From Deltaproteobacteria bacterium (lineage in GTDB: Bacteria > Desulfobacterota > DSM-4660 > Desulfatiglandales > HGW-15): a stretch of DNA of 64,000 nucleotides. Below the pieces are notes generated by a model. It did no database searches, was not told the DNA's origin, and saw only the letters and a program-made list of their open reading frames with translations. The stretch is from NCBI GenBank assembly GCA_016931115.1, contig JAFGFM010000144.1, positions 68,008-132,007 on the forward strand. The letters run 5' to 3'. Below, in pieces: positions 1,831 through 42,827 of the stretch (the first letter of the stretch is position 1; each line of letters opens with the position of its first letter). The position numbers were made by a program, and so were the translations under genes.

Positions 1831-1832
1831 GT

Positions 1833-4533: not shown

Positions 4534-4558
4534 TTTATATCTTATTGAATTTTTCTAA

Positions 4559-5299
4559 TCAATTCAGCGCCGGGAAAAAGACCCTGCATTTGATCCCCGC
4601 AGGCAGTGAATGCCCGGGATTTGCGAGTACAAGCCGCACACCGAATGTGCCGCTTGCAGCGTCTATCACAGTATCCACAACGCTTACCGTTGCCTTCAGC
4701 TCCCGTGAAACAGGGTTCTCTATCCTGATCCTGGCAGTTGAGCCCTTTTTGATCCTGCCATACTCCCCGGCAGGCATAACAACCTCCACATAAAGCGGGT
4801 CAATCCGGGCAATAGACATTATGGGTTTATCACTTACATACTCTCCCCTTGAGATAAACCTCTCAACAACAACGCCATTCACAGGGCTCTTTATATTCTT
4901 TATTTTCAGCTTTTCAAGGGCCTCTTTATACTGAAGCTCTGCGATCGTGAGTTCTGTCTCCATCTCATCCTTGTCATGAATGGAGATAAGCTGTTTTTTA
5001 TATAGGTCTTCATTCCTCTGGCATTTTCTCCTCATGAATTCGACCCTGGCAAGGGCAAGGTCCGCAGAGGCCTTTTCAATGTCAGAATTAAGAGAGGCAA
5101 TTACATCATCTGAACTGACCTTGTCACCCCGGTCAAAAAAGGCCTGTGCAAGGATGCCCTCAACCTGACTGCTCACCTTCACCAGCTCACTGGGCTCAAC
5201 AATACCGTCATAATACAGCTCCTCACCATGGACCGCATTCGAAAGGATGGCCGAAATCATTATTAATAAAAATGTGCCTTTGAGCAGGTTATGTTTCAT
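4559..5299 (-). CDS. HlyD/efflux-type periplasmic adaptor (membrane-fusion protein), small, signal-anchored
   Basis: Start at MKHNLLKGTFLLIMISAILSNAVHG (AAGGGG RBS), 13 nt after the SecA-like stop. Lipoyl-like hairpin (VSSQVEGIL...GDKV...IKSPVNGVV), coiled-coil segment and beta-barrel tail typical of MFPs. Last gene of the operon. Confidence 0.8.
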   Translation of the reverse strand: MKHNLLKGTFLLIMISAILSNAVHGEELYYDGIVEPSELVKVSSQVEGILAQAFFDRGDKVSSDDVIASLNSDIEKASADLALARVEFMRRKCQRNEDLYKKQLISIHDKDEMETELTIAELQYKEALEKLKIKNIKSPVNGVVVERFISRGEYVSDKPIMSIARIDPLYVEVVMPAGEYGRIKKGSTARIRIENPVSRELKATVSVVDTVIDAASGTFGVRLVLANPGHSLPAGIKCRVFFPALN

Positions 5300-5312
5300 T
5301 GATAAACCCCTT

Positions 5313-7316
5313 CTATTCAGAGCGCCCCGAAAATGAGAGCATATTGCCACGCCGCTCATCTTCTTTAAGCAGGTTTTTTCTCATGTCTGAATGGATATGT
5401 TCCATCCTCTTCTGTGCATACAATATGGCCTTTTTTGATAAAAAACAAAAGAGCAATGTCTTTTCAAATGGATAATTTACAGCCATCCATTTCCATAGCC
5501 CGGCTCTTCCTTTTTCAAGAAGGGTATCATCAAGGGATAACATGGCCTCAAAGCTTCCAGGGTCTCCCATACGGGCGCACCGTCCGGCAAGCTGACGGTC
5601 TATCCTGCCTGCCTCATGGCGTTCGGTAAGTATGACATGAAGGCCGTTAAGCTTACTCACTTTTTCCGAGAGCTTAATATCAACTCCGCGGCCAGCCATG
5701 TTTGTAGCAATGGTAATGCTGTATTCATTACCGGCCTGGGCAATAATATCCGCCTCTTCCCTGTCCTGTTTCGCATTCAGTATCCTGAAGGGTAAGCCCT
5801 TCGCAGCAAAATATTTCCCGGCCTTTTCCGAAGCGGCTACCGAATGTGTGCCTATAAGCACAGGCCTTCCCTCCTTATGCATGGCATAAACCCTTTCTGA
5901 AACAGCCTCCCATTTCTCCTCTTCTTTATAAAATACCCTGTCAGAAAACAATTTTCTGCTGTTAGGTTTATAGGTGGGGACGGTTATAACATTGAGCCCA
6001 TATACCTTAATAAGCTCATTTTTCACCTCACGGGCAGTGCCTGTCATCCCGGACAGCTTTATGTACCTTCTAAAAAATCTCTGATAGCTGATACGGGCAA
6101 GAACCTTTGTCTGTTTTGATATCTCACACCCCTCCTTTACCTCAATTAGCTGATGCAGCCCCTTTTCATAGGACCTGTCGGCCATCACCCTGCCGGTGAA
6201 TTCATCAATGATCTGCACCTTTCCATCGCGCACCATATACTGTTCATCAGGTTTGAAAAAATGTATTGCCGAAAGGGCAAGCCTAACGATCTCGGCCCTT
6301 CTTACCTTGCCTGTCCAAAGGGGGCCAAGTCCTGCTGATAATCTAACGATCATCTCTTCACCGCCTGGGGTCAGCCTTATCTCATGGCCAGGGATATTGA
6401 TACTGTAATCCCTGCCCTCGGTCAATTTGCCTGCCAGATCAATAGCCTGATGAAAGAATTTATGTTCATCATGGAGAGTTTCACTTTGACCTGAGATAAT
6501 GAGCGGTGTCCTTGCCTCATCGATCAAAACACTGTCTGCCTCATCTACAATAGCAAAATGAAGGCCCCTTAAAAGAAGCCTCTCTATCCGCTCACTCCCG
6601 TTATAGAGGTATTCAGCATGAAGCTTAAGCTTATTGCCCCTGTCTTCAAGGATGAGCCAGTCCTTAAGGTAGTCAAAAACTATCTCCTTGTTGGTGCAGT
6701 ATACTATATCCTTTTCGTAAGCCCTTCTTCTCTCTTCTGGCGTCATGCCATGAATGATAAATCCTGTGGTTAAACCCATTGCACTGTATATGGAAGATGT
6801 CCATTCTGCATCCCTCTGTGTCAGGTAATCGTTTACGGTTATAACATGAACAGGAATGCCTGCGAGCGCAACAGTCCCAGCTGCAAGGGTTGCGGTAAGG
6901 GTCTTCCCCTCTCCTGTCTCCATTTCAGCTATCATGCCGTCCAGCATGACTTTTCCACCTGCGATCTGTGTATCAAAGTGTTTAAGGCCCTTAATCCTTG
7001 AAGAAAACTCTCTTATAATAGCAAAGGCATGGCTGGCGTTTTTCTCTGTCATCCCCTCCCTTCTAAATATCGCCCTTAATTCATCCGCCTTTGTTCCAAG
7101 TTCTGTTTCTGTCAATCCTTCCAGGTTTGATGATAATTGTTCCACCTCTCCTGCAAATCTTTTAAGTCTGCGCCTGTAACCTTTAAAAGGTGATGAAAAG
7201 GAGATAACCAGATTTTTATATATTCTATCCAGCGCGTTTGTCCTCCTGTCAGCCTTTTCAGGCCTCAATATATGGGAGGCTGGAGGAAATTCTGTCCTGT
7301 TGAATAGCATGGTCAC
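5313..7316 (-). CDS. SecA-like ATPase (truncated SecA paralogue, 667 aa)
   Basis: SecA motor motifs. Walker A MIAEMETGEGKTLTA (ETGEGKT = nt 6900-6920). VHVITVNDYL. VDEADSVLIDEARTPLIISG (VDEAD = nt 6534-6548). LSGMTGTA. ATNMAGRGVDIKL. GLHVILTERHEAGRIDRQLAGRCARMGDPG. The GTG start overlaps the upstream stop (GTGA); an alternative ATG is at 7310. Confidence 0.85.
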   Translation of the reverse strand: MTMLFNRTEFPPASHILRPEKADRRTNALDRIYKNLVISFSSPFKGYRRRLKRFAGEVEQLSSNLEGLTETELGTKADELRAIFRREGMTEKNASHAFAIIREFSSRIKGLKHFDTQIAGGKVMLDGMIAEMETGEGKTLTATLAAGTVALAGIPVHVITVNDYLTQRDAEWTSSIYSAMGLTTGFIIHGMTPEERRRAYEKDIVYCTNKEIVFDYLKDWLILEDRGNKLKLHAEYLYNGSERIERLLLRGLHFAIVDEADSVLIDEARTPLIISGQSETLHDEHKFFHQAIDLAGKLTEGRDYSINIPGHEIRLTPGGEEMIVRLSAGLGPLWTGKVRRAEIVRLALSAIHFFKPDEQYMVRDGKVQIIDEFTGRVMADRSYEKGLHQLIEVKEGCEISKQTKVLARISYQRFFRRYIKLSGMTGTAREVKNELIKVYGLNVITVPTYKPNSRKLFSDRVFYKEEEKWEAVSERVYAMHKEGRPVLIGTHSVAASEKAGKYFAAKGLPFRILNAKQDREEADIIAQAGNEYSITIATNMAGRGVDIKLSEKVSKLNGLHVILTERHEAGRIDRQLAGRCARMGDPGSFEAMLSLDDTLLEKGRAGLWKWMAVNYPFEKTLLFCFLSKKAILYAQKRMEHIHSDMRKNLLKEDERRGNMLSFSGRSE

Positions 7317-9457
7317 ACACTGAATTTACTTAAAAATGTACGTCTTATTCCCTTGTAGATCCTTATGAAAAGAGGCTCATACCCGTGGTTGAATTTTACA
7401 AGCACCCTGGAGCCGATATTGGATATACGCGGATTCTCAATTGATATTTCAAAATGAAAAAGTTTTTCAAATGCATTAACCCTATCAGTGTCAGCAGGAT
7501 TAAGGGCATGTTCGCCTCCCCCTTCAAGAGAGAGGGCAAGACTTGGCAGTTCTGTGGATGCGGCAGGGATTTCTCTGTAAATACGGCCTGGATATGATTG
7601 CCCGGGGGTTTCCACAAGCATAGCCTCAACAGTACCGGGTTTCACCCTGATCCTGTCTATATCCCTTTGCGGCACCACTATCCTGGCAGTTACCCTGTTA
7701 AAATCCACAACATACCCTATCTGTACCCCCCTTCTTAAGTAAAGGCCAATAAGGTTTTCCTGGTCAGGAAGAAGAAATATACCCTCCGACGGACTTTTTA
7801 CTGTAAGGTTTTGGATCTGTTCAGTGATGTTTTTCAGCTCTGCGGATATCCGCCAAATCTCATCCTTTAATATCCTGGCCTCTATCCGGTCACGTGTCTC
7901 TGCAAGGTTGTGGCGCAGTTCATATTCCTTAACTATTGAATCCAGTTCTTTTTTTTGTGTTTCAAGATCCTGATTTACACATACTATAAGAGGATCGCCC
8001 GTTTTGACTTTTGAGCCTGAAGGCACGATAACCTTTTCTATGTATCCATCTGCGCCGGCATAGAGTCTTGAATTTTCAGGGGGCCACAGCACCCCCCTGG
8101 AAATCGTATGGGAGGGGAATGGGATGATAAACAGAGTTGGAATAATTACTAGAAGAGAGATTAATGCTACACTGATTGCCCTTGCCTTTTTTCGCTTCAT
8201 CACAGGATCAGAAAAGAAAAACTTTACTATTTTTACCAGGGGCATAACAATAATGCCAGCCAGACCCCAGATGGCAAGCACGACCCCTACAAAAAAGAAT
8301 CGCCCTGCAATGAATATTGCAATTCGGATTGTTATGAAAATGCGGTACGTAAAGGAACTCAGGCCGTATATCACAAACCATTTTGCCTCACCCTTTGCAG
8401 TTACGGGACTAACAACATCTTCCATATTGAGCAGGTACCGCCTGAACAGATAACCGATATAACTGGCTGAACGCATTGCAAGATTGGGTATCTCAAGAAG
8501 ATCTGACAGGATATAATAGGCATCAAACCTGAGCAGGGGATTGCCGTTAAACAGGATTGTTGAGAGCCCCGCAACAATCATGACGTTAAAGCATACTGCC
8601 CTTATAATCCCCGGCTCTACATTGACCCATAGCAGCATTGCTAAAGACGCAAGCATTAGTTCGGCGAGGATACCGCTGGCCCCCACCATTACCCTTTTGT
8701 ATTTTTCTCTGAAGGCGGATGAAGATGATGCATCAACATAGGGGACAGGCACAAATACAAGGAACATAATTCCCATGTCATGTACCTCGCCCCCAAAGTA
8801 TTTTACTGTATAGGCATGTGAAAACTCATGCACAGCCTTGATTACCGGGTAGATTATCCACAGAAGAAACATGTTTTCAAGGGCAAGAACCCTGTCAGCA
8901 AGGTTCATGGTCAGTTCCTTAAAATGAAATGTGGCAAGAGATAAAGAGAAAAGGAGCAGGATTAAATAGAAGACAAGCCCTGTTCCAGTGAAGAGGGGCC
9001 TGACAAGAAACATGCTCTTTTCAAGAAATCTTTCAGGATCAATCAGGGGCAATTTTATTGAGAGCGGTGATTTTATCCTGCTCAGGATATCATTTTTTTT
9101 AAACCCTTTATTGCGCTCATAAAGTTCCTTTATATCGGGCGGGATATCTGCCTGAAGCAGGTCAGCCTGATGAAGTTGAGATAAAAGCATTATCACCTCA
9201 TCCTGGGTAGGCATGTCATCTCCCAGCATTTCGCAGGCCGATTCCCATATCTCTTTAAGGCTGTTTTTACCATCCATCAAACCAATTATATAGTACGCCT
9301 CCTTTGAAAACCGATGAAAGCCGCCCGTGTAATTATCCTGGAGTACATGCCATTCCTCGCCCCTGTACATTTGGTGATGTACCTTTGCGTGACTTCTTAA
9401 TACTGGCCTTAATGCTGAAACCCTGTACCAGGATTCACTGAAAAGAGAGCCGGTCAA
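7313..9457 (-). CDS. Fusion protein: PqqD-like N-terminal domain + M50 (site-2-protease-like) polytopic membrane domain + C-terminal HlyD-type membrane-fusion domain
   Basis: aa ~10-100 follow a PqqD/RRE-like pattern (ALRPVLRSHAKV...WHVLQD...FHRFSKEAYYIIGLMDGKNSLKEIWE...VIMLLSQLHQADLL). HEFSH is at aa 210-214 (nt 8816-8830) inside a hydrophobic segment. NPLLRFDAYY is at aa 305-314 (within nt 8513-8545), matching the S2P NxxPxxxxDG-type second motif. About 8 hydrophobic segments. aa ~455-714 form the lipoyl/coiled-coil/beta-barrel MFP part. Confidence 0.8.
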   Translation of the reverse strand: MTGSLFSESWYRVSALRPVLRSHAKVHHQMYRGEEWHVLQDNYTGGFHRFSKEAYYIIGLMDGKNSLKEIWESACEMLGDDMPTQDEVIMLLSQLHQADLLQADIPPDIKELYERNKGFKKNDILSRIKSPLSIKLPLIDPERFLEKSMFLVRPLFTGTGLVFYLILLLFSLSLATFHFKELTMNLADRVLALENMFLLWIIYPVIKAVHEFSHAYTVKYFGGEVHDMGIMFLVFVPVPYVDASSSSAFREKYKRVMVGASGILAELMLASLAMLLWVNVEPGIIRAVCFNVMIVAGLSTILFNGNPLLRFDAYYILSDLLEIPNLAMRSASYIGYLFRRYLLNMEDVVSPVTAKGEAKWFVIYGLSSFTYRIFITIRIAIFIAGRFFFVGVVLAIWGLAGIIVMPLVKIVKFFFSDPVMKRKKARAISVALISLLVIIPTLFIIPFPSHTISRGVLWPPENSRLYAGADGYIEKVIVPSGSKVKTGDPLIVCVNQDLETQKKELDSIVKEYELRHNLAETRDRIEARILKDEIWRISAELKNITEQIQNLTVKSPSEGIFLLPDQENLIGLYLRRGVQIGYVVDFNRVTARIVVPQRDIDRIRVKPGTVEAMLVETPGQSYPGRIYREIPAASTELPSLALSLEGGGEHALNPADTDRVNAFEKLFHFEISIENPRISNIGSRVLVKFNHGYEPLFIRIYKGIRRTFLSKFSV

Positions 9458-9500
9458 TTTTTTTGTCCTGTAAATTCAAAACTGTTTTAATTTATTCTTT

Positions 9501-11369
9501 TTATTTGAAATATTCCCAAAACTTTACTGCAAGCCATTCCTTCATGGAGCGTGTCCAGATAGAAAAAAGATTTCTTCTGTCTATATATATCTTCCCTATC
9601 CCCTCCATGCCAGGTCTCAGCCTGTCTGTGATCACCTCAGGGGCAGCCTCAACCCTGAAAAAATTCAACCCCTCTTTTGCAGCAGCGATGGGTGTAATCT
9701 TGTTTACTGTAAAGGCAATCTTTTCATTTGGCAGGGCTGACAGGATCATATGCCCCTTTTGACCCGTTGTTACATCGGCAATCCGTCGTTCATCAACCTC
9801 CAGTATGATCCTGTATTCATCCAGGGGGGCCACTTCAAAGAGTATTTCACCCTTGACAGCTGCCCCGCCCAGCCTTTGACTCAGGTCACCGCTTATTACT
9901 ATCCCGTTAAACGGTGATACAAGATTTGCCCTTTCAATCTGGCTCTCTGTGAGCTCAAGTCTTGCGCTGGCCTGATCAATCTGTGCCCTGAATATCTCTG
10001 CCTCAGCTCTCTCACGCGTTGCCTGCGCTTCCTGATACTGTTTTTCATACTGTGCCTTTTTACTCATCCAGTTGAGCCTCTCAAGACGCAACTCCCTGTC
10101 ATCCATCATGCACAGTTTCGCATCCTTATCCACACGGTCTCCTGCCCTTACATAGGCATCCTTTATGTAGCCTTCAAATGGCGCCACAATCACCCGTTTG
10201 ACAGCCCCTTCAAGGATGGTATTTGCCGGGAGCCTGTAATCCCCATCCTTTACAGCGAAAAATATGACCATGATAACAATAAGGATGGCAAAAAGTTTTC
10301 TACCGCCATATTCAGTCCCCATACCTTTTTTGATAAAGCATTTAAAACCATCTGAGGCTTTTGTCAGTATTGGCCTTTCCCTTTCAAACATCATTCTGAG
10401 TACTGGCTGTATCAAGGATGCTACACTTTTACAGTACATGGAATCATCATCTGTAAATGGCCCTGTTTTGCTTCTTTCAAGGGTGATTACATTTACATAT
10501 CTCTCTTCATCATAAAAGGGGATTGTAAGGATATATTCTGACCCATGCTGTCGGGCGAGGGATTCGTGATCCCGTACGATCTGGCGTTCATGCCCTGTGC
10601 CAGGATAGAAAACTTCCTTTTGCTGGCTTATTGCCTCATCCATTGCCTGAATAATAGCTCTGACAAGATTCATATTATCGGAAACCCGGCTGCTGTGGGA
10701 TACTGCCTGGATCTTTATCTTTTTGTTTTTGATATGGCCAAGGCTAACCCTGTCACACATCAGGCATGTGGCCAACTCTGTCACAAAGGAGAGGCAGGCG
10801 CTCATATAATCTTTTCTGGATACAACCTCTGCCATTAAATCTACTGAAGCCTTGAGTCTTTTAAGTAATTCTCCGGCATCATTTTCACGTTCACGGCGCA
10901 GCATGACCTCCATCCAGGAGATGCCCCACTGAAGCTGCTCCAGGGTATATTTCAACTCTTCTTCTGTTTCAGCCTTTACCTCGATCGCGACAAGCCCGCA
11001 AAAGATGGTACCGGTAAAAACAGGATAGGCAACACCATATGAGCGGACGCTATCCTGCCTGGCCCTCTCTTCATGATCAAGCTCCACAAGCATGCCGCTT
11101 TTATCTTCAATAACCCGCTCTGCTATCTCTGTAAGGCGTTCCGGGTTTGCACCCTTTTCAGGCCATTTTGCCGCTGGAGAAAAATTCTCCTTTGCCTGAT
11201 CGGAAAGGATAACTATACCCTGAGTAACATTGGCGATTATTGCACATTGGAGTGTAAGCCAGTAAAGACAGTATTCTTCCCTTTCTACAGCGCTTGTGAA
11301 CTGAGACCACAAACGGTTGTCAATCCTGGGTCGAAATTTTATTCTTTCGTAATTGTATGTTTTATTCAC
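9501..11369 (-). CDS. GAF-domain-containing HlyD-type membrane-fusion protein
   Basis: The ~350-aa cytoplasmic N-terminus looks like two GAF-like folds by pattern, not by HMM. One TM segment (KLFAILIVIMVIFFAV). Then MFP hallmarks (APFEGYIKDAYVRAGDRV, long coiled coil, LVSPFNGIV, beta-barrel). GTG start. Confidence 0.72.
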   Translation of the reverse strand: MNKTYNYERIKFRPRIDNRLWSQFTSAVEREEYCLYWLTLQCAIIANVTQGIVILSDQAKENFSPAAKWPEKGANPERLTEIAERVIEDKSGMLVELDHEERARQDSVRSYGVAYPVFTGTIFCGLVAIEVKAETEEELKYTLEQLQWGISWMEVMLRRERENDAGELLKRLKASVDLMAEVVSRKDYMSACLSFVTELATCLMCDRVSLGHIKNKKIKIQAVSHSSRVSDNMNLVRAIIQAMDEAISQQKEVFYPGTGHERQIVRDHESLARQHGSEYILTIPFYDEERYVNVITLERSKTGPFTDDDSMYCKSVASLIQPVLRMMFERERPILTKASDGFKCFIKKGMGTEYGGRKLFAILIVIMVIFFAVKDGDYRLPANTILEGAVKRVIVAPFEGYIKDAYVRAGDRVDKDAKLCMMDDRELRLERLNWMSKKAQYEKQYQEAQATRERAEAEIFRAQIDQASARLELTESQIERANLVSPFNGIVISGDLSQRLGGAAVKGEILFEVAPLDEYRIILEVDERRIADVTTGQKGHMILSALPNEKIAFTVNKITPIAAAKEGLNFFRVEAAPEVITDRLRPGMEGIGKIYIDRRNLFSIWTRSMKEWLAVKFWEYFK

Positions 11370-11384
11370 GGCAGACCCGGTATT

Positions 11385-11418
11385 AAAAAAGGACTTAACC
11401 CTTCAAGTCAAGTCCTTT
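11385..11418 (-). terminator. Weak intra-operon hairpin + U-tract (possible attenuator/partial terminator)
   Basis: Minus strand: aaaggactt-(13 nt)-aagtccttt followed by tttaata. The stem is AT-rich and lies between the DUF3467 gene and the GAF-MFP gene. Confidence 0.25.
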
Positions 11419-11468
11419 AGCAAAATTGATAAAAATCTGATATACAGCTTTACAAGGGTACAGGTTAA

Positions 11469-11792
11469 TTATTTAGTAAGATCAATCTTCAGTTCACCAA
11501 AACGCGCCTCATATTCCCGTAAAATGTTACCAAGCAGAATGGCAAGCCTCTTTGCGGCAAAGGGGTTCAGAATGATACGATTTGTAAGCTGAACCGTCAG
11601 CTCAGGCTGCCCTGTATGCCAGCTCTGGTTTGTCCCAAAAAGCATTGTAACCTCTTCCCGTGTGCTGGAAACATTGCACACATTTGCATAGGTGCTTGTC
11701 ATTTTTGAGTCATCCCAGCGCAGGGTCTGTGTTGCAACCGCCTTTTTATCATCTTTTACCTCTTCCATCTTTTCCTCATGTTTAGTGGCCAT
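11469..11792 (-). CDS. DUF3467-like small protein (107 aa)
   Basis: ...YANVCNVSSTREEVTMLFG...VQLTNRIILNPFAAKRLAILLGNILREYEARFGEL matches my recollection of the DUF3467 pattern (YsN..i.hs..EF.lDF...v.sRiil.P.hAKrLl.aL..ni..yE). AAGGAG RBS. Lies 72 nt after the giant gene. Confidence 0.7.
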   Translation of the reverse strand: MATKHEEKMEEVKDDKKAVATQTLRWDDSKMTSTYANVCNVSSTREEVTMLFGTNQSWHTGQPELTVQLTNRIILNPFAAKRLAILLGNILREYEARFGELKIDLTK

Positions 11793-32800: not shown

Positions 32801-35800
32801 CCGCAACTGATGTAATATCCTCTTCTGAATCTGCATTTATGGTTACTGACTTATCTGCATTTACTGTTGCACCAGATTCAATATAGGCCTCTGTATCCTT
32901 AACAATAACACCTACATCAAGGGCTATGCCGACGCCTGTGCCACCAAAGGCAACAGCGAGACCTCCGGCGCCGTTGAGTATCCTTGTAAGGCTTGAGGCA
33001 TCAACTACAACAGACTGATTAAGCCCTGCAATTAATGCGGGATCAGTGTTTATCTTTACCCCTTCACCAACATAGGCATGGGTATTCTGTACAACTACAT
33101 CTACAACCGCAGATCCTCCAACGGCTGCCTTCCCTTCACTGCTGGTGCTTACTCCTCCGCCCGCTGCTATGGATGAGACACCAAAACCAAGGGAACCCAT
33201 ACCAGGTATTTCAAGATTAACCGGTGTTATCGAGGAATCGGAGTTGATTGATATTACCTCACTGGCATCCGCATGTGTATCCTCACTTAAGTATGCATCA
33301 GTATTAGAGACGATTATATTGGCTGCAACCGCAACTCCCACACCGGCCTTTTTGCCAACACCACCGCCGCCAGCTATATTCTGGTATGAGATATCATTTT
33401 CTGCATCTATATCTATATTACCTGTGGATTTGAGGGTGGCACCTGCACCTGTGGAGGCATCCGTATCCATGACCATGACATTGATACCGGCTGACCCTGC
33501 AACACCATTATCCTTGCCTCCGCCAATGGCCAGCGCCCATACTGTAAAATCATTTGTCCTATCTTCAGGTGTAACCGCCTGGATAGAGATATTGGCTGCC
33601 TCGATGTCTGCACCGGCACCGATAATTGCCTCATTAGATAAAATCCCGACATTGAGCCCTACTGCCGCTCCCACACCTGTTGTACTGTCAAAGGAGAGGG
33701 CAGCGCCTGTGACTTTAGTTGTAAGGTCTGTTTCAGATTCAGCAATTACCTCAAGTGAGCCACCAGCATTCACATGGATATCCTCTGCAATAGAGGTTTT
33801 ATTGTCCGATATTACCCAGTTTACTCCGATAGCCGCTGCAATACCCACGCTACTTGAACCGGTTCCGTTTTTTCCGTTCTTATCATTGGTTTTTTCCAGG
33901 GATTTGTCATTTGCATCAGAAAGGCTGTCATTTGCCTTTGGCAAAGTTTTTGTGCCGCCGGTTGCTGCATTGGCCTGGGCCTGGGCCTCGTCATCACTGC
34001 TCCTGGGTGCAGCCTCACCCTCTTTTGTCTCATCTTCGCTCTTGTTACCCTTTGCGCTGGCAGTAATATCCAGCATACTGATTTGATCTGTCAGGGCATC
34101 AATTTTTATGTAACCATCTGCAGAAATATCACGTTCTATTTTTGCGACTGTGGAATCAAGAATAATATTTAACCCCACTGCTGCACCAACCGCAGCCTTG
34201 TCACCGGCCACAGATGCGTCTGCTATTGTATGGGCTGTTCCTGTGTGGTTTGCCTCAATAGTTACATTGCCTGTAATATCTATCTGGCTGATATCATTGG
34301 CACCTAACCTGGCAGTCGTATAATCATTGGCAAAGGCTACAGCTACAGCAGGGCTCACTGCCGTACCGCCTGCAGCCCCTGCCTTGACCGTTGTAAACAC
34401 GGCATGCTCTGATTCTGCCTTTATGGTAAGGTCATTACCCCCGGTTATTTGTGAATTATCCTGTATATCCGCATTTATTACATTTACCGGAAGGACATTA
34501 AGCGCCACCGATGCACCTATGCCTACTTTACCGCCTGTGACCTTTGATGCTGCACTTGCTGAATCATTCTGTGAGCTTTCAGCTATTATAGAAATATTGC
34601 CTGTCCCGGCATCAACTGCCGCTAAAGATTCAATCACTGCCTCAGTATGGGTTGTAATAACATTCAGCGCCAGGGAGCCTGCAACACCTACATTTGAGGC
34701 ACCCGCACCAGAAACCGCATTTGCGACAAAGCTATGACTCTTTTCAATGAGCCTGTGATTACTGCCCGTGGCTCCTGTTGTAAGGTCTATTGTTTTTCCG
34801 ATCAGGGCATCCTCCGGGGTTAATGCAAGTTTTACTGCCACCGGATATACAATAGTAAATTTGTGATCAAAGAAGCTTATGTTTTCAACTGAAAATAGAA
34901 GGTCCTGCACTTCATCGGAATCAGGGTCAAGCAGTTTAATCCGGGTTGGATTATCTTCATCCACATCAACCTTGTATGTTGCCCCCTCTTTCAATCCCCC
35001 GATAGGTCCGCTGTTAAGCAGGTTCCCCTTGGAATAGACCACAAGGTCTCCATCCTTTAAAAAATGGTCAGCCCCCAGCTCTATCCAGTTATCTGTATAA
35101 TTTATAGACCCGCCTATTGTATTTATGTCTATACCCACCTTTGCCATTGCGTCCCTGAAGGTATTGAGTTCATTTACCCCGAGGTCATCAATGTCATAGG
35201 GGATAATATTGAAGCTTCTGGTATCATCCAAAACGGCATAATAGGTCTGGCCATCTACAAGCCCGCCAATGCTGGCATCCCCGCCGTTGTCATATACTAT
35301 TTTGTCCCCTGTCTGGATACCATGCTCTTCCCCAAGATTTATACTTTCCCTTGTCACAGAAACACTGGAAAGATCAATGGCCTTTTCATCCCCTGCCATA
35401 TCGGCCTTTACTACAAGACCGTTGGTATCTATATCAGCATCGGTTCCTACATAGGCCCTGTTTGCCACATCCGAATAATTTATTGCAATCGCTGCGCCTA
35501 TGCCAACCTTTGTATTGGCAGGATCAACAGCGCTTCCGTCTGCATCTGCTTTTGCATCCGTGTTATTTGAAGAGTTTAATGTAAGGGTGCCTCCTGATAC
35601 TACATGTCCATTTGCAGGGATAAATGCCTTTGATTCACTTAATGTGATATTTACCCCTATGGCGGCTGCAACACTTACAGTGCCATCAGAGGTTTCAGCC
35701 TTGGGTGTTTCAGCAGCATCTCCAGTACCTTTTTTACCTGTCTCCTGTGCCTTGTCATCAGCGAGCTTTCTCTGATCACCAACCTTCTTGTCAACATTTT

Positions 35801-38800
35801 CAGATGAACCGCTCCCTTCAGATTCACCCTCAGACCCTTTTGCACTTGCCTTGGCAGATGAGGAGCTTGTAGTAATGGTAAAGGCCTCAAAATTCATATC
35901 ACCGGCAGAATCTATCTCCCTGTCTGTAGTAGATATAGCACTATCAGTAACCACATTCAGACCCAGGGCTATACCTATAGCTGCACCACCACCAGAGGCT
36001 GCACCATCGGCCTTTGTCTCTGTTACTCCTTTGTGATTAGCCTTTGCGTTAAAGTCACCATCTATGTCCAGTTTATCTCCACTGCCCACGTAGGTTATTG
36101 TATCGTTATTGGCTACCGCTATACTGATAGCCCCACCTATCCCAACTCCACTCCCACCCTTGGCTTCACCACCGGCTGTTGAGGTCGTGACTGCCTTGGT
36201 ATTACTGTCCGCTGACAAACTTATATCATTTATCGTTCCGGTTATTATCGCGCTGTTTTCTATCTTCGCCGTTGAGGTGTTGTTAGATATATTTAAGGCT
36301 ACAGAGGCACCTATACCTAGGTTACCTCCTCCGCTTGCAGGGGCTGCTGATTCTACTGTAAGGCTCTGTATTCCTGTTCCGGCTGATGTAATATCAATCG
36401 CTGTACCAGCATTGGCATTAGCCTCTGTAGTGGCAAGCTTCACCCTGGTAGTCCCATCGGTAATCACATAATAGATCGTGCCATCAGTTAAACCGCCTAT
36501 AGCTGTTCCGTCACCCTTGTTGTATACAACCGCATCACCTGTCTGAAGGGCATGTTTCTCCCCCAGTTCAATCGTGTCTGAGGTAGCCACAACCTTTGTA
36601 CCTGCATCAAATCCTTTGCTTGCTACCGCATCAGCGCTGACAGCCTTCACCTTCTCACCGGTCATTACAGACCCTTCAGCGTTCGCTGTCGTAGTCTCAA
36701 GTCCAAGCTGTGTAATGGCAGTAGCTGCACCAATAGCCTCCACCTTAAATTGCTTCACGCTGGCTGTCTGGGTATCTGTCCAGATCGTCATTGTCTCTGA
36801 CGAGTCAAAGATAAGCTGATTTCCTATAAACTTTACATCCACTAATGCTGCATCACCTGCTTCAAGATGACCGGCATCTACCATGGCATCTTTTATCGCG
36901 GCCTTGATATCACTTAACCATGCCTTCTTGCACTCATCCGCTGTACCTAGGTACTCCTTTGCTTCAACTGTTACAAACACACGCTCGTTATCTGTCCCTA
37001 CACGTAAGGCAAAATTAAGCGCTTCGCTTTCATCATTAATTGGTGATTCAACCGCTGTTCCACCATCCCTCCTGTAAAATACTGGGCTCCCTGTCATGGT
37101 TACTGATGTTCCTGCACTTACAACCGGGTCAGCAGGGGTGATAGTATCCGTCATTACAAACTGCTGCTTTGCCTCGTCAAAGCTTGCTACCAGTTGACCC
37201 TTGTTGTTCCCGGCATTGTTGATCTTCTCTATAACCTCACGCACAGTTGTTGCACCATTCAGGACAACCACAAAGCTCTTCCCATTACGCAGGTTAAAAA
37301 CCAGATCTCCTGTGCCAGCACCTGCTGCTGTCAGGTTAAATTCCCCGGCTCCTTGCCCGATCTTTGTATCAAGTGTGATCCGATCCGTGTCACCTGCTGC
37401 CTCTACCTTCTTCTCAGGCTCTACAGAAGCTCCTTTGGCCGTGGCCAAAACTGTAGACTCAGTAGACCCTTCTGCAATGACCTTAACATCCCCGCCAGTA
37501 AGAGTTACTGTGCTACCTCCATTTATCAGCGCCTCGTTTCTGCTGTCAGCTATGTTCAGAGCCAATGACCCAGCTATACCTACCTTGCCTCCGCTCGCCC
37601 CTGATATCGCCTCTGCGCCAATTTTGCCTGTTGTATCACCTGATACAGATCTCTTCTTGGCCTCTATTGTCAGCCAGTCCGCATTTATCGTTGATCCTGT
37701 TCCTACATAGGCCTCATTTACTGCGCTAACAAGGTTGATAGCTACCGCTGCACCTATGCTTACCCCTCCAGATGCACTCGTTGCGCTTCCATCTGCCTTG
37801 GCTGTCGCATCAGTGTTATTGCTGGAACTCAAAGTAACCATGCCGTCAGAGGCTATTGTGCCGTTATCTGGGATATATGCCTGTGCCGTTGATTTAGCTA
37901 TGTTCACCCCTATCGCTGCCGCTACGCTCACGCCACCTTCTGATGTCTCAGCAGCAGGTGTCTCTGCAGATTCCCCTGTCCCCTTTGTACCTGTCTCACC
38001 TGCCTTCTTATCCGCAAGGCCCCTCTCTGCCCCTATCTTCTTGTCTACCCCCTTATCCTTTTCAGGATCAGCATCATCCTCTTCCTTTGCGCCTGATGCA
38101 CTGGCTTTAGCGCCTGCGCTGCTTGCACCCGCATTGTAGGCCCCAAACATCACGTCTCCACCGGCTGTTATTACCCTTTCAGTCGTAGACAGGCTTATAT
38201 CATTTACTACATTAAGCCCCAGCGCTACACCTATACCTGCGCTTGCCCCTCCTGCTGATCCGTCTGCAAAGGTGGTTGTGTTCCCTGTATGCTGTGCCTC
38301 TGCCTTAAGTGCTCCGGTTATACTTAACGGGCTGCCTTCTCCTATTACTGTAATTGCTTCATTGTTAACTACGCTTGTTGCTATGGCACCGCCTAAACCT
38401 ACGCCGCTTCCTCCTGTGGCCGCGCCCCCTGCCTTCGCTGTAGTCACTACAGTATTATCAGATGTGGCCTTCAGGGTTACATCATCCGCTCCGGTGAGAA
38501 CAACTGTGTCAGCTACCTTAGCCCTCGTGCTCGTATTGGCTATATTTAGCGCTACTGATGCACCTACGCCTACGCTCCCTGCTGTAGCACCCTCATTCGC
38601 CGGATTCGCGATAACTGTGTTTACTGTCGTGTTCTCTGCTGTTAAACTTACATCCCCTGCGCCAGTTATAACCACACTCGCACCACTCTCTATCTCCGCC
38701 CGGCTATTACCATCCAATATACCTAATGCCAATGACCCGGCTACTCCTACAGTACCCCCATTAGCGCCCGATATAGCCTCAGATGATATGGTGTTTGCGA

Positions 38801-41216: not shown

Positions 41217-41279
41217 TTGAAGGATTACCTCTTGTGTGGATTTTATTAAATATTAATCCGTTAACTCTTTATTTTTTTG

Positions 41280-42827
41280 CTACTTAAGCCACTCATTGAC
41301 AACCGTGATATCTTCCTGTGCAAGCAGGCCGACCGCCTTTTTGAGCCTGAAGCTGTAGATAATGTACTCATACAGCGATTTGGTATACTCCTGCTTGGTC
41401 TGGTACAGGTCCCTTTCTGCATCTGTTACAGCAAGGCTGGGGAACATGCCGGACTTGAATCCCTCTTTCTTGGCCGTGAGTGTAATCTGGTTACTGATCA
41501 TTGCCTCTTTCAGGGCATTGATATTCTCTATTGAGCTTTTAATACCCAAGAACGCTGCCTTGGATTCCCTGGTTGCGGATCTGATCTCTCCTTCAAGATC
41601 CTCTTCAGCGGCCTTTAAAAGAAGCCTTGCCTCCCTCACCTTTGATGAGGTGGAGAAGCCGTTAAAAATAGGGATCTTAAGTTCAACTGCCCCTTCCCAT
41701 CTCTCAAGATCGCTCCCGCCGCCATATAATGACCCATCTTCTATATCCCTGTTCATCCTGCCAACAAGATTAAGAGTCGGCAGATGGCCTGAGTTCTGTA
41801 TTGAGACCTCTTTTCCTGCCACAACCACTCTCTTCTCCTTTACAAGCACATCAATATTCTGCCTTCTTGCTGAAGCGACCCATTCATCAACATTATCAGG
41901 TATCGGGGTTATCAACGGGATTGTGTCCCATGTGTATGCCACTGTTTCTCCGGGGTTCAGGCTGTTGAAGCCCTTTATATCTATATCACCTGTCCCAGGA
42001 GATTGTTTTTCATCAGTAACGGCAGCCTTTGTGCCGCCATTAATATTTCTTGCGCCAGGTTCAGAGAGGTAACTATCAATCTTGATATCGGGCAATATTA
42101 TGGTTTTAAGATCATCCATCCGCCTGCCAGTTATCTCAGCCAGCCCCTCAAGGGCATCTTCAAGGATATGGTCAGCCCTTACACGCTTTGTCGTAATAAC
42201 GGCAAGCCGGGCCTTTGCGTCATGGAAATCGGTAACAGGGGCAAGACCGTTTTCGTATCTTTCCTTTGCAAGATTATAATGCATATTAACAGCCGCCTCT
42301 TCCGATCTGCTGAATTGAAGGATATCCTTTGCCTCAAGCGCTGCAAGGTATGCCTCTGTAACCCGGAGAATGAGTGTCTGTTTTGCTGTCTCAAGCTCCA
42401 GATCAGCCTGCCTGACCTCCTCCTTTGCCTGTGAAAGCCTGACAATAGATGAGTATTTAAAAAGAGGCTGGCTCAATACCAGATCAAACCCCTTACCCGG
42501 ATATTTTGCAGTGCTGTCGCCATATACCACAACCTCATTGTCAAATATCTCATGCCTTGAACGTTTGTAAAAGGCATCAAAACTGACAACAGGCAGTATC
42601 TCAGCGAATGCCTGATTATATATTTCAGGCGATGCGTTGTGCCGGTGTATCTCCTTCTGAAAGGTTGCATCATTCTCAAGGGCAACCTGATAGACCTCAA
42701 GCAGATCAGAAGAATATGCAGACAGAGAGCAGATGAACAGTAACAGAGAGCAAAAAGAGAGCCTTATAAATCCTCCTTTAATGCCCCCTGAAAAACAGTA
42801 AAAATATCTTGAGATAATTGAATACAT
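41280..42827 (-). CDS. TolC-family outer-membrane channel protein
   Basis: Signal peptide (…LLLFICSLSAYSSDL) and GGGAGG RBS. Two-fold repeated TolC pattern (LLEVYQVALENDATFQ..., ...AERDLYQTKQEYTKSLYEYI...) with a ~70-aa insertion between the halves. First gene of the operon. Confidence 0.87.
   Translation of the reverse strand: MYSIISRYFYCFSGGIKGGFIRLSFCSLLLFICSLSAYSSDLLEVYQVALENDATFQKEIHRHNASPEIYNQAFAEILPVVSFDAFYKRSRHEIFDNEVVVYGDSTAKYPGKGFDLVLSQPLFKYSSIVRLSQAKEEVRQADLELETAKQTLILRVTEAYLAALEAKDILQFSRSEEAAVNMHYNLAKERYENGLAPVTDFHDAKARLAVITTKRVRADHILEDALEGLAEITGRRMDDLKTIILPDIKIDSYLSEPGARNINGGTKAAVTDEKQSPGTGDIDIKGFNSLNPGETVAYTWDTIPLITPIPDNVDEWVASARRQNIDVLVKEKRVVVAGKEVSIQNSGHLPTLNLVGRMNRDIEDGSLYGGGSDLERWEGAVELKIPIFNGFSTSSKVREARLLLKAAEEDLEGEIRSATRESKAAFLGIKSSIENINALKEAMISNQITLTAKKEGFKSGMFPSLAVTDAERDLYQTKQEYTKSLYEYIIYSFRLKKAVGLLAQEDITVVNEWLK

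What the first reader, a model, noticed from the sequence alone, without database searches (positions are those of the whole stretch)
4559..42827. Type-I-like secretion operon with no ABC transporter: TolC + giant substrate + DUF3467 + three membrane-fusion proteins + M50-like membrane domain + SecA-like ATPase
Seven co-directional minus-strand genes are packed with these spacings:
- tolC-like to giant gene: 63 nt;
- giant gene to DUF3467: 72 nt;
- DUF3467 to GAF-MFP: 99 nt;
- GAF-MFP to PqqD/M50/MFP: 43 nt;
- PqqD/M50/MFP to SecA-like: GTGA overlap;
- SecA-like to small MFP: 13 nt.

The unit is delimited by a terminator at 43306-43329 upstream and by the convergent fabD downstream. An outer-membrane channel, periplasmic adaptors and an RTX-bearing, nearly Cys-free giant substrate are the hallmarks of a type I secretion locus. 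The obligatory ABC exporter is missing, however. No Walker-A/ABC-signature ORF exists anywhere in the operon.

The only energy-transducing candidate is a truncated SecA paralogue, translationally coupled to a polytopic M50-like protein that is itself fused to an HlyD domain. I am not aware of a characterised secretion system with this composition. My inference is that a SecA-type motor plus the M50/HlyD membrane protein replace the ABC component.
Basis: partly seen in the sequence, partly recalled or inferred. Interest (0 to 1): 0.92.

Follow-up and report, generated by a model that had tools for sequence, protein, structure and literature searches.

The report
SecA-like, ABC-less giant-protein secretion operon
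This is a widespread but never experimentally studied gene set that looks like a TolC-type secretion machine powered by a truncated SecA-like ATPase instead of the usual ABC transporter; across many bacteria it sits next to giant surface proteins carrying a shared N-terminal "LEPR-XLL" tag, which are its probable cargo.

Summary
Seven co-directional minus-strand genes encode: TolC; a 9,783-aa LEPR-XLL/DUF4347/RTX giant; DUF3467; a GAF-MFP; a PqqD-like/M50/HlyD fusion; a truncated SecA-like ATPase; and a small MFP. None is an ABC protein.

The four-gene core keeps its order in about 80 species from several phyla. At least 585 species carry the M50-HlyD protein (4,364 clusters at 50% identity). 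No T1SS-type ABC exporter lies within 10 kb of it in the first 82 loci.

The core is not new. Kamneva, Poudel & Ward (PLoS One 2015, PMC4452313) described it and proposed that SecA_DEAD supplies the ATPase and M50 the pore. I found no experimental follow-up.

New here:
- Giant genes adjoin the core in about 43 of 54 loci. Reciprocally, four of five tag-bearing DUF4347 giants have it beside their 5' end.
- All 10 visible N-termini of linked giants carry the basic-stretch + LEPRxLLSAD tag.
- The M50 zinc site is invariant, and the domain is preceded by a PqqD-like leader-binding domain.
- DUF3467 or SapC are recurrent accessories.
- Many linked giants share a ~70-aa C-terminal module.

Best reading: an ABC-less, TolC-coupled exporter of tagged giants. 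The mechanism, the membrane pore especially, is inferred.

The parts
43306..43329 (-). GC-rich hairpin just downstream of the preceding FecR-domain gene; likely its terminator and the upstream boundary of the unit
   Evidence: RNA fold gives -22.6 kcal/mol, z = -4.1, with 0 of 200 shuffles as stable. The consensus scan did not call it.
43259..43287 (-). Sigma-70-like promoter match (TTGACT-17-AATATT) upstream of the TolC gene
   Evidence: It is a consensus match only, and the number of matches found does not exceed the shuffled expectation.
41280..42827 (-). TolC-family outer-membrane channel (515 aa)
   Evidence: OEP at 1.7e-50. TIGR01844 type_I_sec_TolC at 240.7 bits, above its 225.15 cut-off.
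11865..41216 (-). Giant putative cargo protein (9,783 aa)
   Evidence: A single uninterrupted ORF. It matches DUF4347, the LEPR-XLL domain, LktA_tand_53 repeats and RTX repeats. It has 4 Cys in all.
41067..41132 (-). N-terminal LEPR-XLL tag (aa 29-50: ...RRRMLFETLEKRILLSADP), preceded by a K/R-rich stretch
   Evidence: NF012209 at 29.1 bits against a cut-off of 17. PF07595 Planc_extracel, weak. The same tag is at 10 of 10 visible N-termini of cassette-linked giants.
40179..40775 (-). DUF4347 domain of the giant (aa 148-346)
   Evidence: PF14252 at 5.5e-50.
12789..15740 (-). RTX (GGxGxD) calcium-binding repeat region of the giant (aa ~8493-9476)
   Evidence: HemolysinCabind at 8.8e-44.
11868..12083 (-). 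Conserved ~70-aa C-terminal module of the giant (..AMVAGLTGWGALSGKK..LDRKNRLRKFVKWTNGEL..)
   Evidence: An HMM built from 17 giants hits only the C-terminal ends of giants in about 25 loci (17 seeds plus 8 non-seed) and nothing else in those loci. Pfam and NCBIfam scans reported nothing at the extreme C-terminus; the only hits in the last ~1,000 aa are RTX and Tcp10_C-like repeats.
11469..11792 (-). DUF3467 small cytoplasmic accessory protein (107 aa)
   Evidence: PF11950 at 2.6e-21. It has no hydrophobic segment. It lies directly upstream of the core in 28 of 54 loci. Homologues are 70-95% identical.
9501..11369 (-). GAF-MFP: ~350-aa cytoplasmic N-terminal part with a GAF domain, one TM segment (aa 353-378), and a periplasmic adaptor
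   Evidence: Searches give the domains; one search gives the hydropathy. It is upstream of M50-HlyD in 69 of 69 loci.
7313..9457 (-). PqqD-like (RRE) domain + about 7-TM M50 metalloprotease + periplasmic HlyD/MacA-like adaptor (714 aa)
   Evidence: Domain matches are. H210-E211-x-x-H214 and N306-P307...D312 are invariant in 16 homologues. The AF2 model has pLDDT 62, with a beta3-alpha3 N-terminus and a hairpin adaptor. Foldseek's best hits are MacA, MexA and AcrA.
5313..7316 (-). Truncated SecA-like ATPase (667 aa): NBD1 + PPXD + NBD2 + the start of the scaffold helix; no wing domain, two-helix finger or C-terminal tail
   Evidence: Pfam matches are. It scores below every NCBIfam SecA/SecA2 cut-off. 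It aligns to B. subtilis SecA residues 13-604 only; the chain is 783 aa. ATPase motifs are conserved in 60 homologues. It lies downstream of M50-HlyD in 68 of 70 loci.
4559..5299 (-). Small periplasmic adaptor (246 aa from the ATG at 5299) with an N-terminal signal/anchor segment
   Evidence: TIGR01730 at 119.7 bits, above its 94.9 cut-off. It is present in 60 of 64 loci.

Best explanation
The locus is a member of the conserved 'secondary SecA_DEAD / type-I-secretion-related' module. It most likely encodes an envelope-spanning, TolC-coupled export apparatus dedicated to the adjacent giant protein.

Proposed steps, each marked as shown or inferred:
1. The giant is made in the cytoplasm with an N-terminal leader: a basic stretch followed by LEPRxLLSAD (shown).
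2. The cytoplasmic PqqD-like domain of the M50-HlyD protein binds that leader, as RiPP recognition elements bind leader peptides (inferred).
3. The truncated SecA-like ATPase keeps the motor and the polypeptide clamp (NBD1, PPXD, NBD2) but lacks the parts that dock on and insert into SecY (shown). It docks on the cytoplasmic faces of M50-HlyD and GAF-MFP and feeds the unfolded chain into an inner-membrane portal formed by their transmembrane segments (inferred; the pore is the weakest point).
4. The catalytically intact M50 domain removes the leader (inferred from the invariant zinc site and from homology to RiPP leader peptidases).
5. The three adaptor proteins bridge to TolC (inferred from fold similarity to MacA/MexA/AcrA).
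6. Calcium-driven folding of the RTX region outside the cell prevents back-sliding (inferred from established type I secretion knowledge).
7. DUF3467, or SapC in other lineages, acts as a cytoplasmic accessory or chaperone. The GAF domain provides regulation. Both are inferred.
For: Domains and the absence of an ABC protein:
- Domain calls confirmed, and no ABC protein in the operon or the window.
- Within +/-10 kb of the core in the first 82 loci, the only ABC-like ORFs are two small (257-259 aa) ATPases far from the core.

Core synteny across Desulfobacterota, Alpha-, Beta- and Gammaproteobacteria, Rokubacteria, Omnitrophota and a Flavobacteriales MAG:
- GAF-MFP upstream in 69 of 69 loci.
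- SecA-like downstream in 68 of 70.
- Small MFP present in 60 of 64.

Linkage to giants:
- A giant gene lies directly upstream in 39 of 54 loci. Four more are rearranged or fragmented cases.
- Reciprocal test: four of five DUF4347 giants, at least three of them with a readable LEPR tag, have the core directly beside their 5' end.
- Two tag-less cyanobacterial DUF4347 proteins do not.
- The LEPR tag is at 10 of 10 visible N-termini of linked giants, including giants without DUF4347.

M50-HlyD protein:
- M50 zinc-site residues are invariant.
- Closest named families are the daptide and YydH/LiaK RiPP leader peptidases.
- PqqD matches 13 of 16 homologues.
- The model shows a beta3-alpha3 N-terminal domain.
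- The C-terminal part resembles MacA/MexA/AcrA.

SecA-like protein:
- It retains the Walker A, DEAD and arginine-finger regions and the PPXD.
- It ends near B. subtilis SecA residue 604.
- Its start overlaps the M50-HlyD stop.

TolC is encoded in the unit in the window, L013, L056, L079, L087, and the Methylosinus and Thalassospira plasmids.

Kamneva et al. 2015 reached the same secretion hypothesis independently.
Against: - There is no experimental evidence of any kind. In M. extorquens AM1 the genes other than the GAF gene were barely expressed in exponential phase (PMC4452313).
- No component is an established protein-conducting channel. Site-2 proteases are not known to translocate polypeptides.
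- The Thalassospira marina operon has the tagged giant, DUF3467, GAF-MFP, M50-HlyD, the small MFP and TolC but no SecA-like gene. Either the ATPase is encoded elsewhere or it is dispensable.
- The RTX region and the conserved C-terminal module resemble the layout of classical C-terminal-signal T1SS cargo. A distant ABC transporter cannot be excluded from a 64-kb window.
- About 11 of 54 loci have no giant next to the core. Three of them instead have radical-SAM, methyltransferase and halogenase genes.
- The PqqD and M50 matches in the window protein itself are below Pfam cut-offs.
- Both AF2 models are of low to moderate confidence.
Confidence: 0.6

Rival explanations
1. Classical type I secretion through an ABC exporter encoded elsewhere moves the giant. 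The cassette is an accessory module that processes, retains, releases or regulates it. This would be analogous to LapG/LapD control of LapA-type adhesins: M50 cuts the N-terminal anchor, GAF senses a signal, and the SecA-like ATPase unfolds or extracts the anchor.
For: - The giant has RTX repeats near its C-terminus, followed by about 300 aa and a conserved C-terminal module. That is the layout of T1SS cargo.
- No recognised pore protein is present in the cassette.
- A GAF sensor domain is present.
- TolC is often not in the locus: 2 of 54.
- The T. marina variant lacks SecA-like.
Against: - No T1SS ABC exporter lies within 10 kb of the core in the first 82 loci, although T1SS ABC and MFP genes are normally adjacent.
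- Three adaptor proteins and an ATPase are a great deal of machinery for a processing role.
- Many linked giants have no detectable RTX region.
- No LapG- or LapD-like proteins are in the window.
Confidence: 0.17
2. Two-step route. The SecA-like protein is an accessory SecA2-type motor that drives the giant through the housekeeping SecYEG channel, using the LEPR region as an atypical signal. M50 acts as the signal peptidase or signal-peptide peptidase. The adaptors and TolC then take the chain from the periplasm, as MacAB-TolC does for some peptides.
For: - There are SecA2 precedents in Gram-positives and mycobacteria. The SecA-like protein's NCBIfam scores to SecA2 families are high (407-541 bits) although below the cut-offs.
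- The tag has a basic n-region, as signal peptides do.
- From my own knowledge: the M50 protease RseP degrades remnant signal peptides.
Against: - The protein lacks the two-helix finger, the wing domain, most of the scaffold and the C-terminal tail. Canonical SecA uses these to bind and act on SecY, and SecA2 proteins largely retain them (PMC4452313).
- The LEPR tag has no uninterrupted hydrophobic core.
- A 9,783-aa unfolded periplasmic intermediate is hard to reconcile with a two-step route.
Confidence: 0.13
3. The cassette is primarily an exporter and leader peptidase for small modified peptides (RiPP-like), and its adjacency to giants is secondary.
For: - The PqqD-like plus M50 architecture is closest to the daptide and YydH/LiaK RiPP proteases.
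- In L003, L061 and L071 the core lies next to radical-SAM, O-methyltransferase and halogenase genes, and DUF3467 is fused to an enzyme-like protein.
Against: - Giants adjoin the core in about 80% of informative loci, in co-directional upstream, co-directional downstream and divergent arrangements.
- The reciprocal search starting from giants recovers the core.
- The LEPR tag is at 10 of 10 visible N-termini.
- No small precursor-like ORF was noticed in the window operon.
Confidence: 0.05

Closest known systems
'Secondary SecA_DEAD domain protein' locus of Kamneva, Poudel & Ward, PLoS One 2015 (PMC4452313)
   Same: The four proteins are the same: GAF+HlyD, Peptidase_M50+HlyD, a SecA_DEAD protein lacking wing/scaffold, and HlyD/biotin-lipoyl. 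An OEP/TolC neighbour is occasional and there is no ABC transporter. The hypothesis is also the same: SecA_DEAD as the ATPase and M50 as a possible pore, with the locus spread by horizontal transfer.
   Different: That paper named no cargo. It did not report the PqqD-like domain, the conserved M50 catalytic residues, DUF3467/SapC, the LEPR-XLL tag or giant genes. It did not list Desulfobacterota, Omnitrophota or Rokubacteria. The present locus adds TolC and the cargo in one apparent operon.
Classical type I secretion system (HlyB-HlyD-TolC; LapBCE for giant RTX adhesins)
   Same: It shares the TolC outer-membrane channel, HlyD-family adaptors, a giant RTX-bearing cargo that is nearly Cys-free, and operon linkage of cargo and machinery.
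   Different: There is no ABC exporter. The ATPase is a soluble truncated SecA. There are three different adaptors, one fused to an M50 protease and one to a GAF domain. The shared cargo tag is N-terminal (LEPR-XLL), not only C-terminal.
SecA / accessory SecA2 translocation ATPases
   Same: It shares the DEAD-like motor (NBD1, NBD2) and the preprotein cross-linking domain with conserved ATPase motifs. It is about 45% identical to B. subtilis SecA over the aligned part (my estimate from the alignment).
   Different: It ends after the first part of the scaffold helix. It has no wing domain, two-helix finger or C-terminal linker/zinc finger. It scores below all NCBIfam SecA/SecA2 cut-offs. It is encoded with TolC-type machinery rather than SecY2/Asp proteins.
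Membrane-embedded RiPP leader peptidases of the M50 type (daptide HExxH protease NF041824; YydH/LiaK NF058609), and PCAT-type leader-cleaving exporters
   Same: It has an N-terminal PqqD-like region followed by a polytopic HExxH metalloprotease. The concept of leader recognition and cleavage coupled to export also applies.
   Different: It scores 151 bits against a cut-off of 300, so it is not an equivalog. It is fused to a periplasmic adaptor and partnered with a SecA-like ATPase. The presumed substrate is thousands of residues long, not a peptide.
SecA-like domains inside giant proteins of Omnitrophota and Actinobacteria (West-Roberts et al., bioRxiv 10.1101/2023.11.21.568195)
   Same: These are SecA DEAD plus preprotein-binding domains lacking scaffold and wing, associated with giant proteins, and proposed to export the giant.
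   Different: There the SecA-like domains are part of the giant itself, and TolC, HlyD and M50 are not mentioned. Here the ATPase is a separate 667-aa protein in a TolC/MFP operon.

Membership tests
Classical type I secretion system | Inner-membrane ABC exporter (Walker A/B, LSGGQ signature, ABC_membrane) | tested here: not met
   No ABC_tran or ABC_membrane match in any operon ORF. A motif scan of the window and of 82 related loci found no exporter-type ABC protein.
Classical type I secretion system | HlyD-family periplasmic adaptor | tested here: met
   Three proteins have HlyD_D23/HlyD_3 matches. The small one exceeds the TIGR01730 cut-off. The adaptor part of the fusion protein resembles MacA, MexA and AcrA in structure.
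Classical type I secretion system | TolC-family outer-membrane factor | tested here: met
   TIGR01844 at 240.7 bits, above its 225.15 cut-off.
Classical type I secretion system | Cargo with RTX nonapeptide repeats and a C-terminal secretion signal | tested here: inconclusive
   RTX repeats are present (8.8e-44). A conserved C-terminal module exists, but its role as a signal is untested. Many linked giants lack RTX.
Secondary SecA_DEAD / T1SS-related module (Kamneva et al. 2015) | SecA_DEAD protein that has lost the wing/scaffold domain | tested here: met
   It aligns only to SecA residues 13-604. It is below all SecA/SecA2 cut-offs.
Secondary SecA_DEAD / T1SS-related module (Kamneva et al. 2015) | Co-encoded Peptidase_M50+HlyD, GAF+HlyD and HlyD/biotin-lipoyl proteins in a conserved neighbourhood | tested here: met
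   All three are present with those domains. Neighbourhood conservation: 69 of 69, 68 of 70 and 60 of 64 loci.
Canonical SecA / SecA2 | NBD1, PPXD and NBD2 with ATPase motifs | tested here: met
   SecA_DEAD at 3.7e-102, SecA_PP_bind at 2.9e-23, P-loop_SecA at 1.5e-48. The motifs are conserved in 60 homologues.
Canonical SecA / SecA2 | Helical scaffold, wing domain, two-helix finger and C-terminal linker; score above the family cut-off | tested here: not met
   The protein ends about 13 aa after the position aligned to B. subtilis SecA residue 604; the chain is 783 aa. The best NCBIfam score is 595 against a cut-off of 814.
Peptidase family M50 (site-2 protease) | HExxH and NxxPxxxxD zinc-binding motifs in a polytopic membrane domain | tested here: met
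   H210, E211, H214, N306, P307 and D312 are invariant in 16 sequences. About seven hydrophobic segments span aa 149-453.
Peptidase family M50 (site-2 protease) | Pfam gathering score | tested here: not met
   22.4 bits against a cut-off of 27.2 in the window protein. All 16 homologues match at E <= 1, the best at 4.9e-6.
PqqD-like RiPP recognition element | PF05402 match and a beta3-alpha3 winged-helix fold | tested here: inconclusive
   The window protein gives E = 0.02, 15.7 bits against a cut-off of 23.4. Thirteen of 16 homologues match, the best at 1.7e-5. The AF2 model shows three strands then three helices at aa 24-97, but with pLDDT about 55-68. Peptide binding cannot be tested here.
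LEPR-XLL domain-containing protein (NF012209) | N-terminal LEPRxLL motif above the curated cut-off | tested here: met
   29.1 bits against a cut-off of 17, at aa 29-50.
LapA-type T1SS adhesin with LapG/LapD control | LapG-type periplasmic cysteine protease and a LapD-type GGDEF/EAL receptor near the adhesin | tested here: not met
   No such domains appear in any ORF of the window scanned with Pfam.
SecB-like chaperone (considered for DUF3467) | Sequence-profile or fold similarity to SecB | tested here: inconclusive

The most novel reading that the evidence does not exclude
This is a distinct class of Gram-negative protein secretion system. A soluble truncated SecA motor, a leader-recognising (PqqD-like) M50 protease fused to a periplasmic adaptor, two further adaptors and TolC together export giant proteins. 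The cargo is marked by an N-terminal LEPR-XLL / 'Planctomycete extracellular' leader that is cleaved during transport. No ABC transporter and no SecYEG are involved. The many orphan LEPR-XLL/PF07595-tagged proteins in Planctomycetes, Proteobacteria and Desulfobacterota would be its secretome.
Probability: 0.4. Interest if true: 0.9.

Novelty: new member of a known kind. Interest (0 to 1): 0.62.

Why it matters
If the model is right, bacteria have a major protein-export route that is absent from current secretion-system classifications. The signature M50-HlyD protein occurs in at least 585 species and forms 4,364 clusters at 50% identity.

The route would use a SecA-derived motor outside the Sec pathway. 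It would handle some of the largest proteins known, at 4,000 to more than 15,000 aa.

The 2015 description left the locus without a cargo, so no phenotype could be looked for. The link established here supplies one:
- a specific cargo class, the giant proteins;
- a specific tag, LEPRxLLSAD after a basic stretch;
- a specific receptor candidate, the PqqD-like domain;
- a specific processing site candidate, the intact M50 centre.

This makes the hypothesis directly testable in culturable carriers of the module, such as Methylobacterium extorquens AM1, Mesorhizobium ciceri, Methylosinus, Thalassospira marina and Neptuniibacter.

It also offers an explanation for the long-unexplained N-terminal 'Planctomycete extracellular' motif. 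It gives annotators a reason to stop naming the ATPase 'preprotein translocase SecA', 'DEAD/DEAH box helicase' or 'prepilin peptidase'.

Tried and rejected
- Literature. Searches for LEPR-XLL, DUF4347, DUF3467, SecA+HlyD+TolC+M50 and PqqD+M50+HlyD found nothing on the system. The prior description surfaced only with SecA2, TolC and membrane-fusion terms.
- Link to the Chlorochromatium giants. These are flanked by sapC and TolC, and the genome has a horizontally acquired secA (bioRxiv 10.64898/2026.03.19.712371).
- The consensus terminator scan found no terminator at either end of the unit. Folding was needed to confirm the hairpin.
- P0316 (Planktothrix DUF4347) was not on record for a context look-up.
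- The upstream FecR-domain, SLT, OmpH and TPR-porin genes were tested as possible parts of the system. No homologues appeared in any of the 82 related loci, so they are treated as unrelated neighbours.
- A whole-genome phylogenetic profile of tag against module could not be run, because only one genome-collection scan was allowed.

Full report
**1. The observation**

The seven minus-strand ORFs exist as described. From 5' to 3':

| Gene | Coordinates | Length |
|---|---|---|
| TolC | 41280-42827 | 515 aa |
| Giant | 11865-41216 | 9,783 aa |
| DUF3467 | 11469-11792 | 107 aa |
| GAF-MFP | 9501-11369 | 622 aa |
| PqqD-like/M50/HlyD | 7313-9457 | 714 aa |
| SecA-like | 5313-7316 | 667 aa |
| Small MFP | 4559-5299 | 246 aa |

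The small MFP must then start at the ATG at 5299, which follows a Shine-Dalgarno-like AGGGG.
- The hairpin at 43306-43329 folds at -22.6 kcal/mol with z = -4.1.
- fabD is convergent at the other end.
- Pfam and NCBIfam confirm every domain call and find no ABC domain.
- A Walker-A/LSGGQ scan of all six frames of the window finds no ABC protein.
- The giant carries the LEPR-XLL domain (NF012209, above its cut-off), DUF4347 and RTX repeats near the C-terminus. It has only four cysteines.

**2. What the individual proteins are**

SecA-like protein:
- It aligns to B. subtilis SecA residues 13-604 and then stops. It therefore has NBD1, the preprotein cross-linking domain, NBD2 and the beginning of the scaffold helix.
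- It lacks the wing domain, the two-helix finger and the C-terminal tail.
- Its Walker A (METGEGKT), DEAD box (VDEADS) and arginine-finger region are conserved in 60 homologues of uniform length, about 655-670 aa.
- It scores below every curated SecA/SecA2 cut-off.

714-aa fusion protein:
- Hydropathy and the AF2 model give three parts: a cytoplasmic N-terminal domain with a strand-strand-strand-helix-helix-helix order, about seven membrane helices, and a periplasmic adaptor with a short hairpin.
- The adaptor's best structural matches are MacA, MexA and AcrA.
- In an alignment of 16 homologues at 49-74% identity, H210-E211-x-x-H214 and N306-P307...D312 are invariant. This is the M50 zinc site, so the protease is probably active.
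- The N-terminal domain matches PqqD in 13 of 16 homologues, but only at E = 0.02 in the window protein.
- The closest named NCBIfam families are membrane RiPP leader peptidases (daptide HExxH protease, YydH/LiaK), both below cut-off.

Other proteins:
- GAF-MFP has about 350 cytoplasmic residues with a GAF domain, one membrane segment and a periplasmic adaptor.
- The small MFP has an N-terminal signal or anchor.
- DUF3467 is small, has no hydrophobic segment and is very highly conserved. Its fold could not be established.

**3. Comparative genomics**

Spread of the M50-HlyD protein:
- More than 6,700 word-sharing relatives, nearly all 714 aa.
- 4,364 clusters at 50% identity with E <= 1e-30.
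- The best 80 loci cover Desulfobacterota, Gammaproteobacteria (Neptuniibacter, Marinobacterium, Kistimonas, Vibrio, Thiomicrorhabdus), Alphaproteobacteria (Mesorhizobium, Bradyrhizobium, Methylobacterium), Betaproteobacteria (Accumulibacter, Sulfuritalea), Rokubacteria, Omnitrophota and a Flavobacteriales MAG.

I searched the ORFs of these loci with the window proteins:

| Feature | Loci with it / loci with enough DNA |
|---|---|
| GAF-MFP directly upstream of M50-HlyD | 69 / 69 |
| SecA-like directly downstream | 68 / 70 |
| Small MFP present | 60 / 64 |
| Giant ORF (runs off the locus or >= 1,000 aa) directly upstream of the core | 39 / 54 |
| DUF3467 | 28 / 54 |
| SapC (PF07277) | 9 / 54 |
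| TolC within the locus | 2 / 54 |

- Four more loci have the giant divergent, downstream or fragmented.
- SapC is inserted inside or beside the core in 12 loci overall.
- TolC in most loci would lie beyond the giant, outside the fetched DNA. Complete plasmids of Methylosinus sp. C49 and Thalassospira marina show it at the end of the operon.
- Only two small ABC ATPase ORFs, both remote from the core, were seen in the first 82 loci.

**4. The reciprocal test and the tag**

- Starting from the giant's N-terminal 350 aa, I looked up five DUF4347 proteins on long contigs.
- Four have the core directly beside the giant's 5' end. Three are co-directional upstream. One is a divergent variant that includes a 700-aa OEP.
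- Two cyanobacterial DUF4347 proteins lacking the tag have no core within 10 kb.
- Wherever the N-terminus of a core-linked giant could be read, it begins with a K/R-rich stretch followed by [FL]-E-x-L-E-P-R-x-L-L-S-A-D.
- That holds in 10 cases: the window, L013, L056, L057, L083, L084, L087, Mesorhizobium ciceri, Thalassospira marina and Methylosinus. Some of these giants have no DUF4347.
- The tag, not DUF4347, is therefore the feature that travels with the machinery. It is the same motif as Pfam's 'Planctomycete extracellular'.
- Kamneva et al. found the module in Planctomycetes. That fits the idea that the motif is its targeting signal, but this step is inference.

**5. A second conserved end**

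- Many linked giants from Desulfobacterota and several Gammaproteobacteria share a ~70-aa C-terminal module: A-x-A-G-[LF]-x-G-W-G...basic...R-R-[FW]-x-x-W-x-x-G.
- An HMM of it hits only the last residues of giants in about 25 loci and nothing else in those loci.
- Neither Pfam nor NCBIfam reported a match there.
- Its role is open. It could be a C-terminal signal, an anchor, or a binding site for DUF3467.

**6. Prior knowledge**

- Kamneva, Poudel & Ward (PLoS One 2015, PMC4452313) described 'secondary SecA_DEAD domain proteins' lacking the wing/scaffold domain.
- They noted that no ABC transporter was present. They suggested that SecA_DEAD supplies ATPase activity and the M50 protein a pore.
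- The paper does not mention substrates, giant proteins, RTX, DUF4347, PqqD or DUF3467.
- I found one later paper citing it and no experimental work.
- NCBIfam (June 2026) has no dedicated model for either protein.
- RefSeq names the core proteins inconsistently. The M50-HlyD protein appears as 'peptidase M50', 'PqqD family protein' or 'hypothetical protein'. The SecA-like ATPase appears as 'preprotein translocase subunit SecA', 'DEAD/DEAH box helicase' or even 'prepilin peptidase'. The last is 48% identical to the window SecA-like protein over its full length.
- West-Roberts et al. (bioRxiv 2023) reported similarly truncated SecA-like domains inside Omnitrophota giants and suggested self-export. 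They made no link to TolC, HlyD or M50.

**7. Mechanism**

Shown:
- The composition of the operon.
- The conserved linkage of the core genes to each other and to giants.
- The N-terminal tag on linked giants.
- The intact ATPase motifs of the SecA-like protein and the intact zinc site of the M50 domain.
- The predicted topologies.
- The absence of an ABC exporter nearby.

Inferred:
- The PqqD-like domain binds the LEPR leader.
- The SecA-like motor, deprived of its SecY-interacting parts, docks on the M50-HlyD/GAF-MFP cytoplasmic face and pushes the unfolded chain.
- The M50 domain removes the leader.
- The adaptors connect to TolC.
- RTX folding outside the cell ratchets the chain.

The inner-membrane conduit is the unresolved step. 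The rivals are listed with their evidence: an ABC exporter encoded elsewhere with the cassette as a processing or regulatory module; a SecYEG-dependent two-step route; and a RiPP-type exporter. The T. marina operon without SecA-like and the loci with radical-SAM neighbours show that the module is used in more than one configuration.

**8. Verdict**

It belongs to a bioinformatically known but experimentally uncharacterised kind.
- The value added here is the cargo and tag assignment and the re-interpretation of the M50 fusion as a leader-recognising protease. Together these make the 2015 hypothesis testable.
- Interest is moderate to high. Novelty: a new member of a known kind.

Noticed in passing
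window 11868-12083 (-); also the C-terminal ends of giants in L002, L004, L008-L012, L015-L020, L022-L024, L028, L031, L034, L036, L043, L049, L051, L060: Giants next to the core share a ~70-aa C-terminal module (A.AG[LF].GWG..S, a basic stretch, then RR[FW]..W..G). Pfam and NCBIfam scans did not detect it. An HMM of it hits only giant C-termini.
   Followed up: partly
L048 12340-13188 (+); also L050, L070, L073, L075, L035, L053, L066, L072, L077, L061, L034: A SapC-family gene (PF07277, 4e-72) sits inside or beside the core in 12 loci, mostly ones without DUF3467. SapC is the unexplained accessory of the Campylobacter fetus S-layer type I system. A sapC also flanks the Chlorochromatium giant genes in bioRxiv 10.64898/2026.03.19.712371.
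   Followed up: partly
L003 944-5280 (-); L061 2054-7436 (-); L071 ~1379-7353 (-): In three loci without a giant, the core is divergently next to radical-SAM, O-methyltransferase and (in Methylobacterium) tryptophan-halogenase genes. In L003 a DUF3467 domain is fused to a larger protein. This suggests DUF3467 is a substrate-binding module and that some versions of the core handle modified peptides or proteins.
   Followed up: partly
L056 10001-22091 (Omnitrophota MAG): Here the LEPR-tagged giant starts just downstream of M50-HlyD, and no separate SecA-like gene was detected in the locus. Published Omnitrophota giants carry SecA-like domains internally, so the ATPase may be fused to the cargo in this phylum.
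   Followed up: no
L096 5522-24487 (Thalassospira marina plasmid NZ_CP024200.1): This is a complete operon: LEPR-XLL giant, DUF3467, GAF-MFP, M50-HlyD, small MFP, TolC. There is no SecA-like gene and no gap where one could be.
   Followed up: no
L095 22222-24138 (Methylosinus sp. C49 plasmid); L091 22174-24135 (Mesorhizobium ciceri plasmid): RefSeq annotates the SecA-like ATPase as 'prepilin peptidase' in Methylosinus. That protein is 48% identical to the window protein over its full length. In M. ciceri the gene in the corresponding position is annotated 'DEAD/DEAH box helicase'; its identity as the SecA-like ATPase is inferred from position and size only and was not compared. The M50-HlyD protein is variously 'hypothetical', 'PqqD family protein' or 'biotin/lipoyl-binding protein'.
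   Followed up: partly
L087 667-9400 (-): A rearranged variant lies divergent from a LEPR-tagged giant: a 700-aa OEP protein, SecA-like, several small unknown ORFs, an MFP, then M50-HlyD.
   Followed up: no
window 43347-51293 (-): Upstream of the unit lie a 1,361-aa FecR-domain protein with a signal peptide, an SLT lytic transglycosylase, an OmpH/Skp chaperone and a TPR + beta-barrel-porin (DUF2860/BBP2) protein. No homologues were found in the 82 related loci. The Methylosinus locus does also have a small FecR-family gene near the core (L095 27887-28516).
   Followed up: partly
window 59031-59939 (-): A tyrosine recombinase (Phage_integrase, 5.5e-51) lies about 16 kb from the unit. The GC profile shows no obvious island boundary. 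The module is thought to spread by horizontal transfer.
   Followed up: no
L002 6065-7567 (+): In the closest complete relative (65% identical M50-HlyD; giant of 15,183 aa), a DDE transposase is inserted between DUF3467 and GAF-MFP.
   Followed up: no
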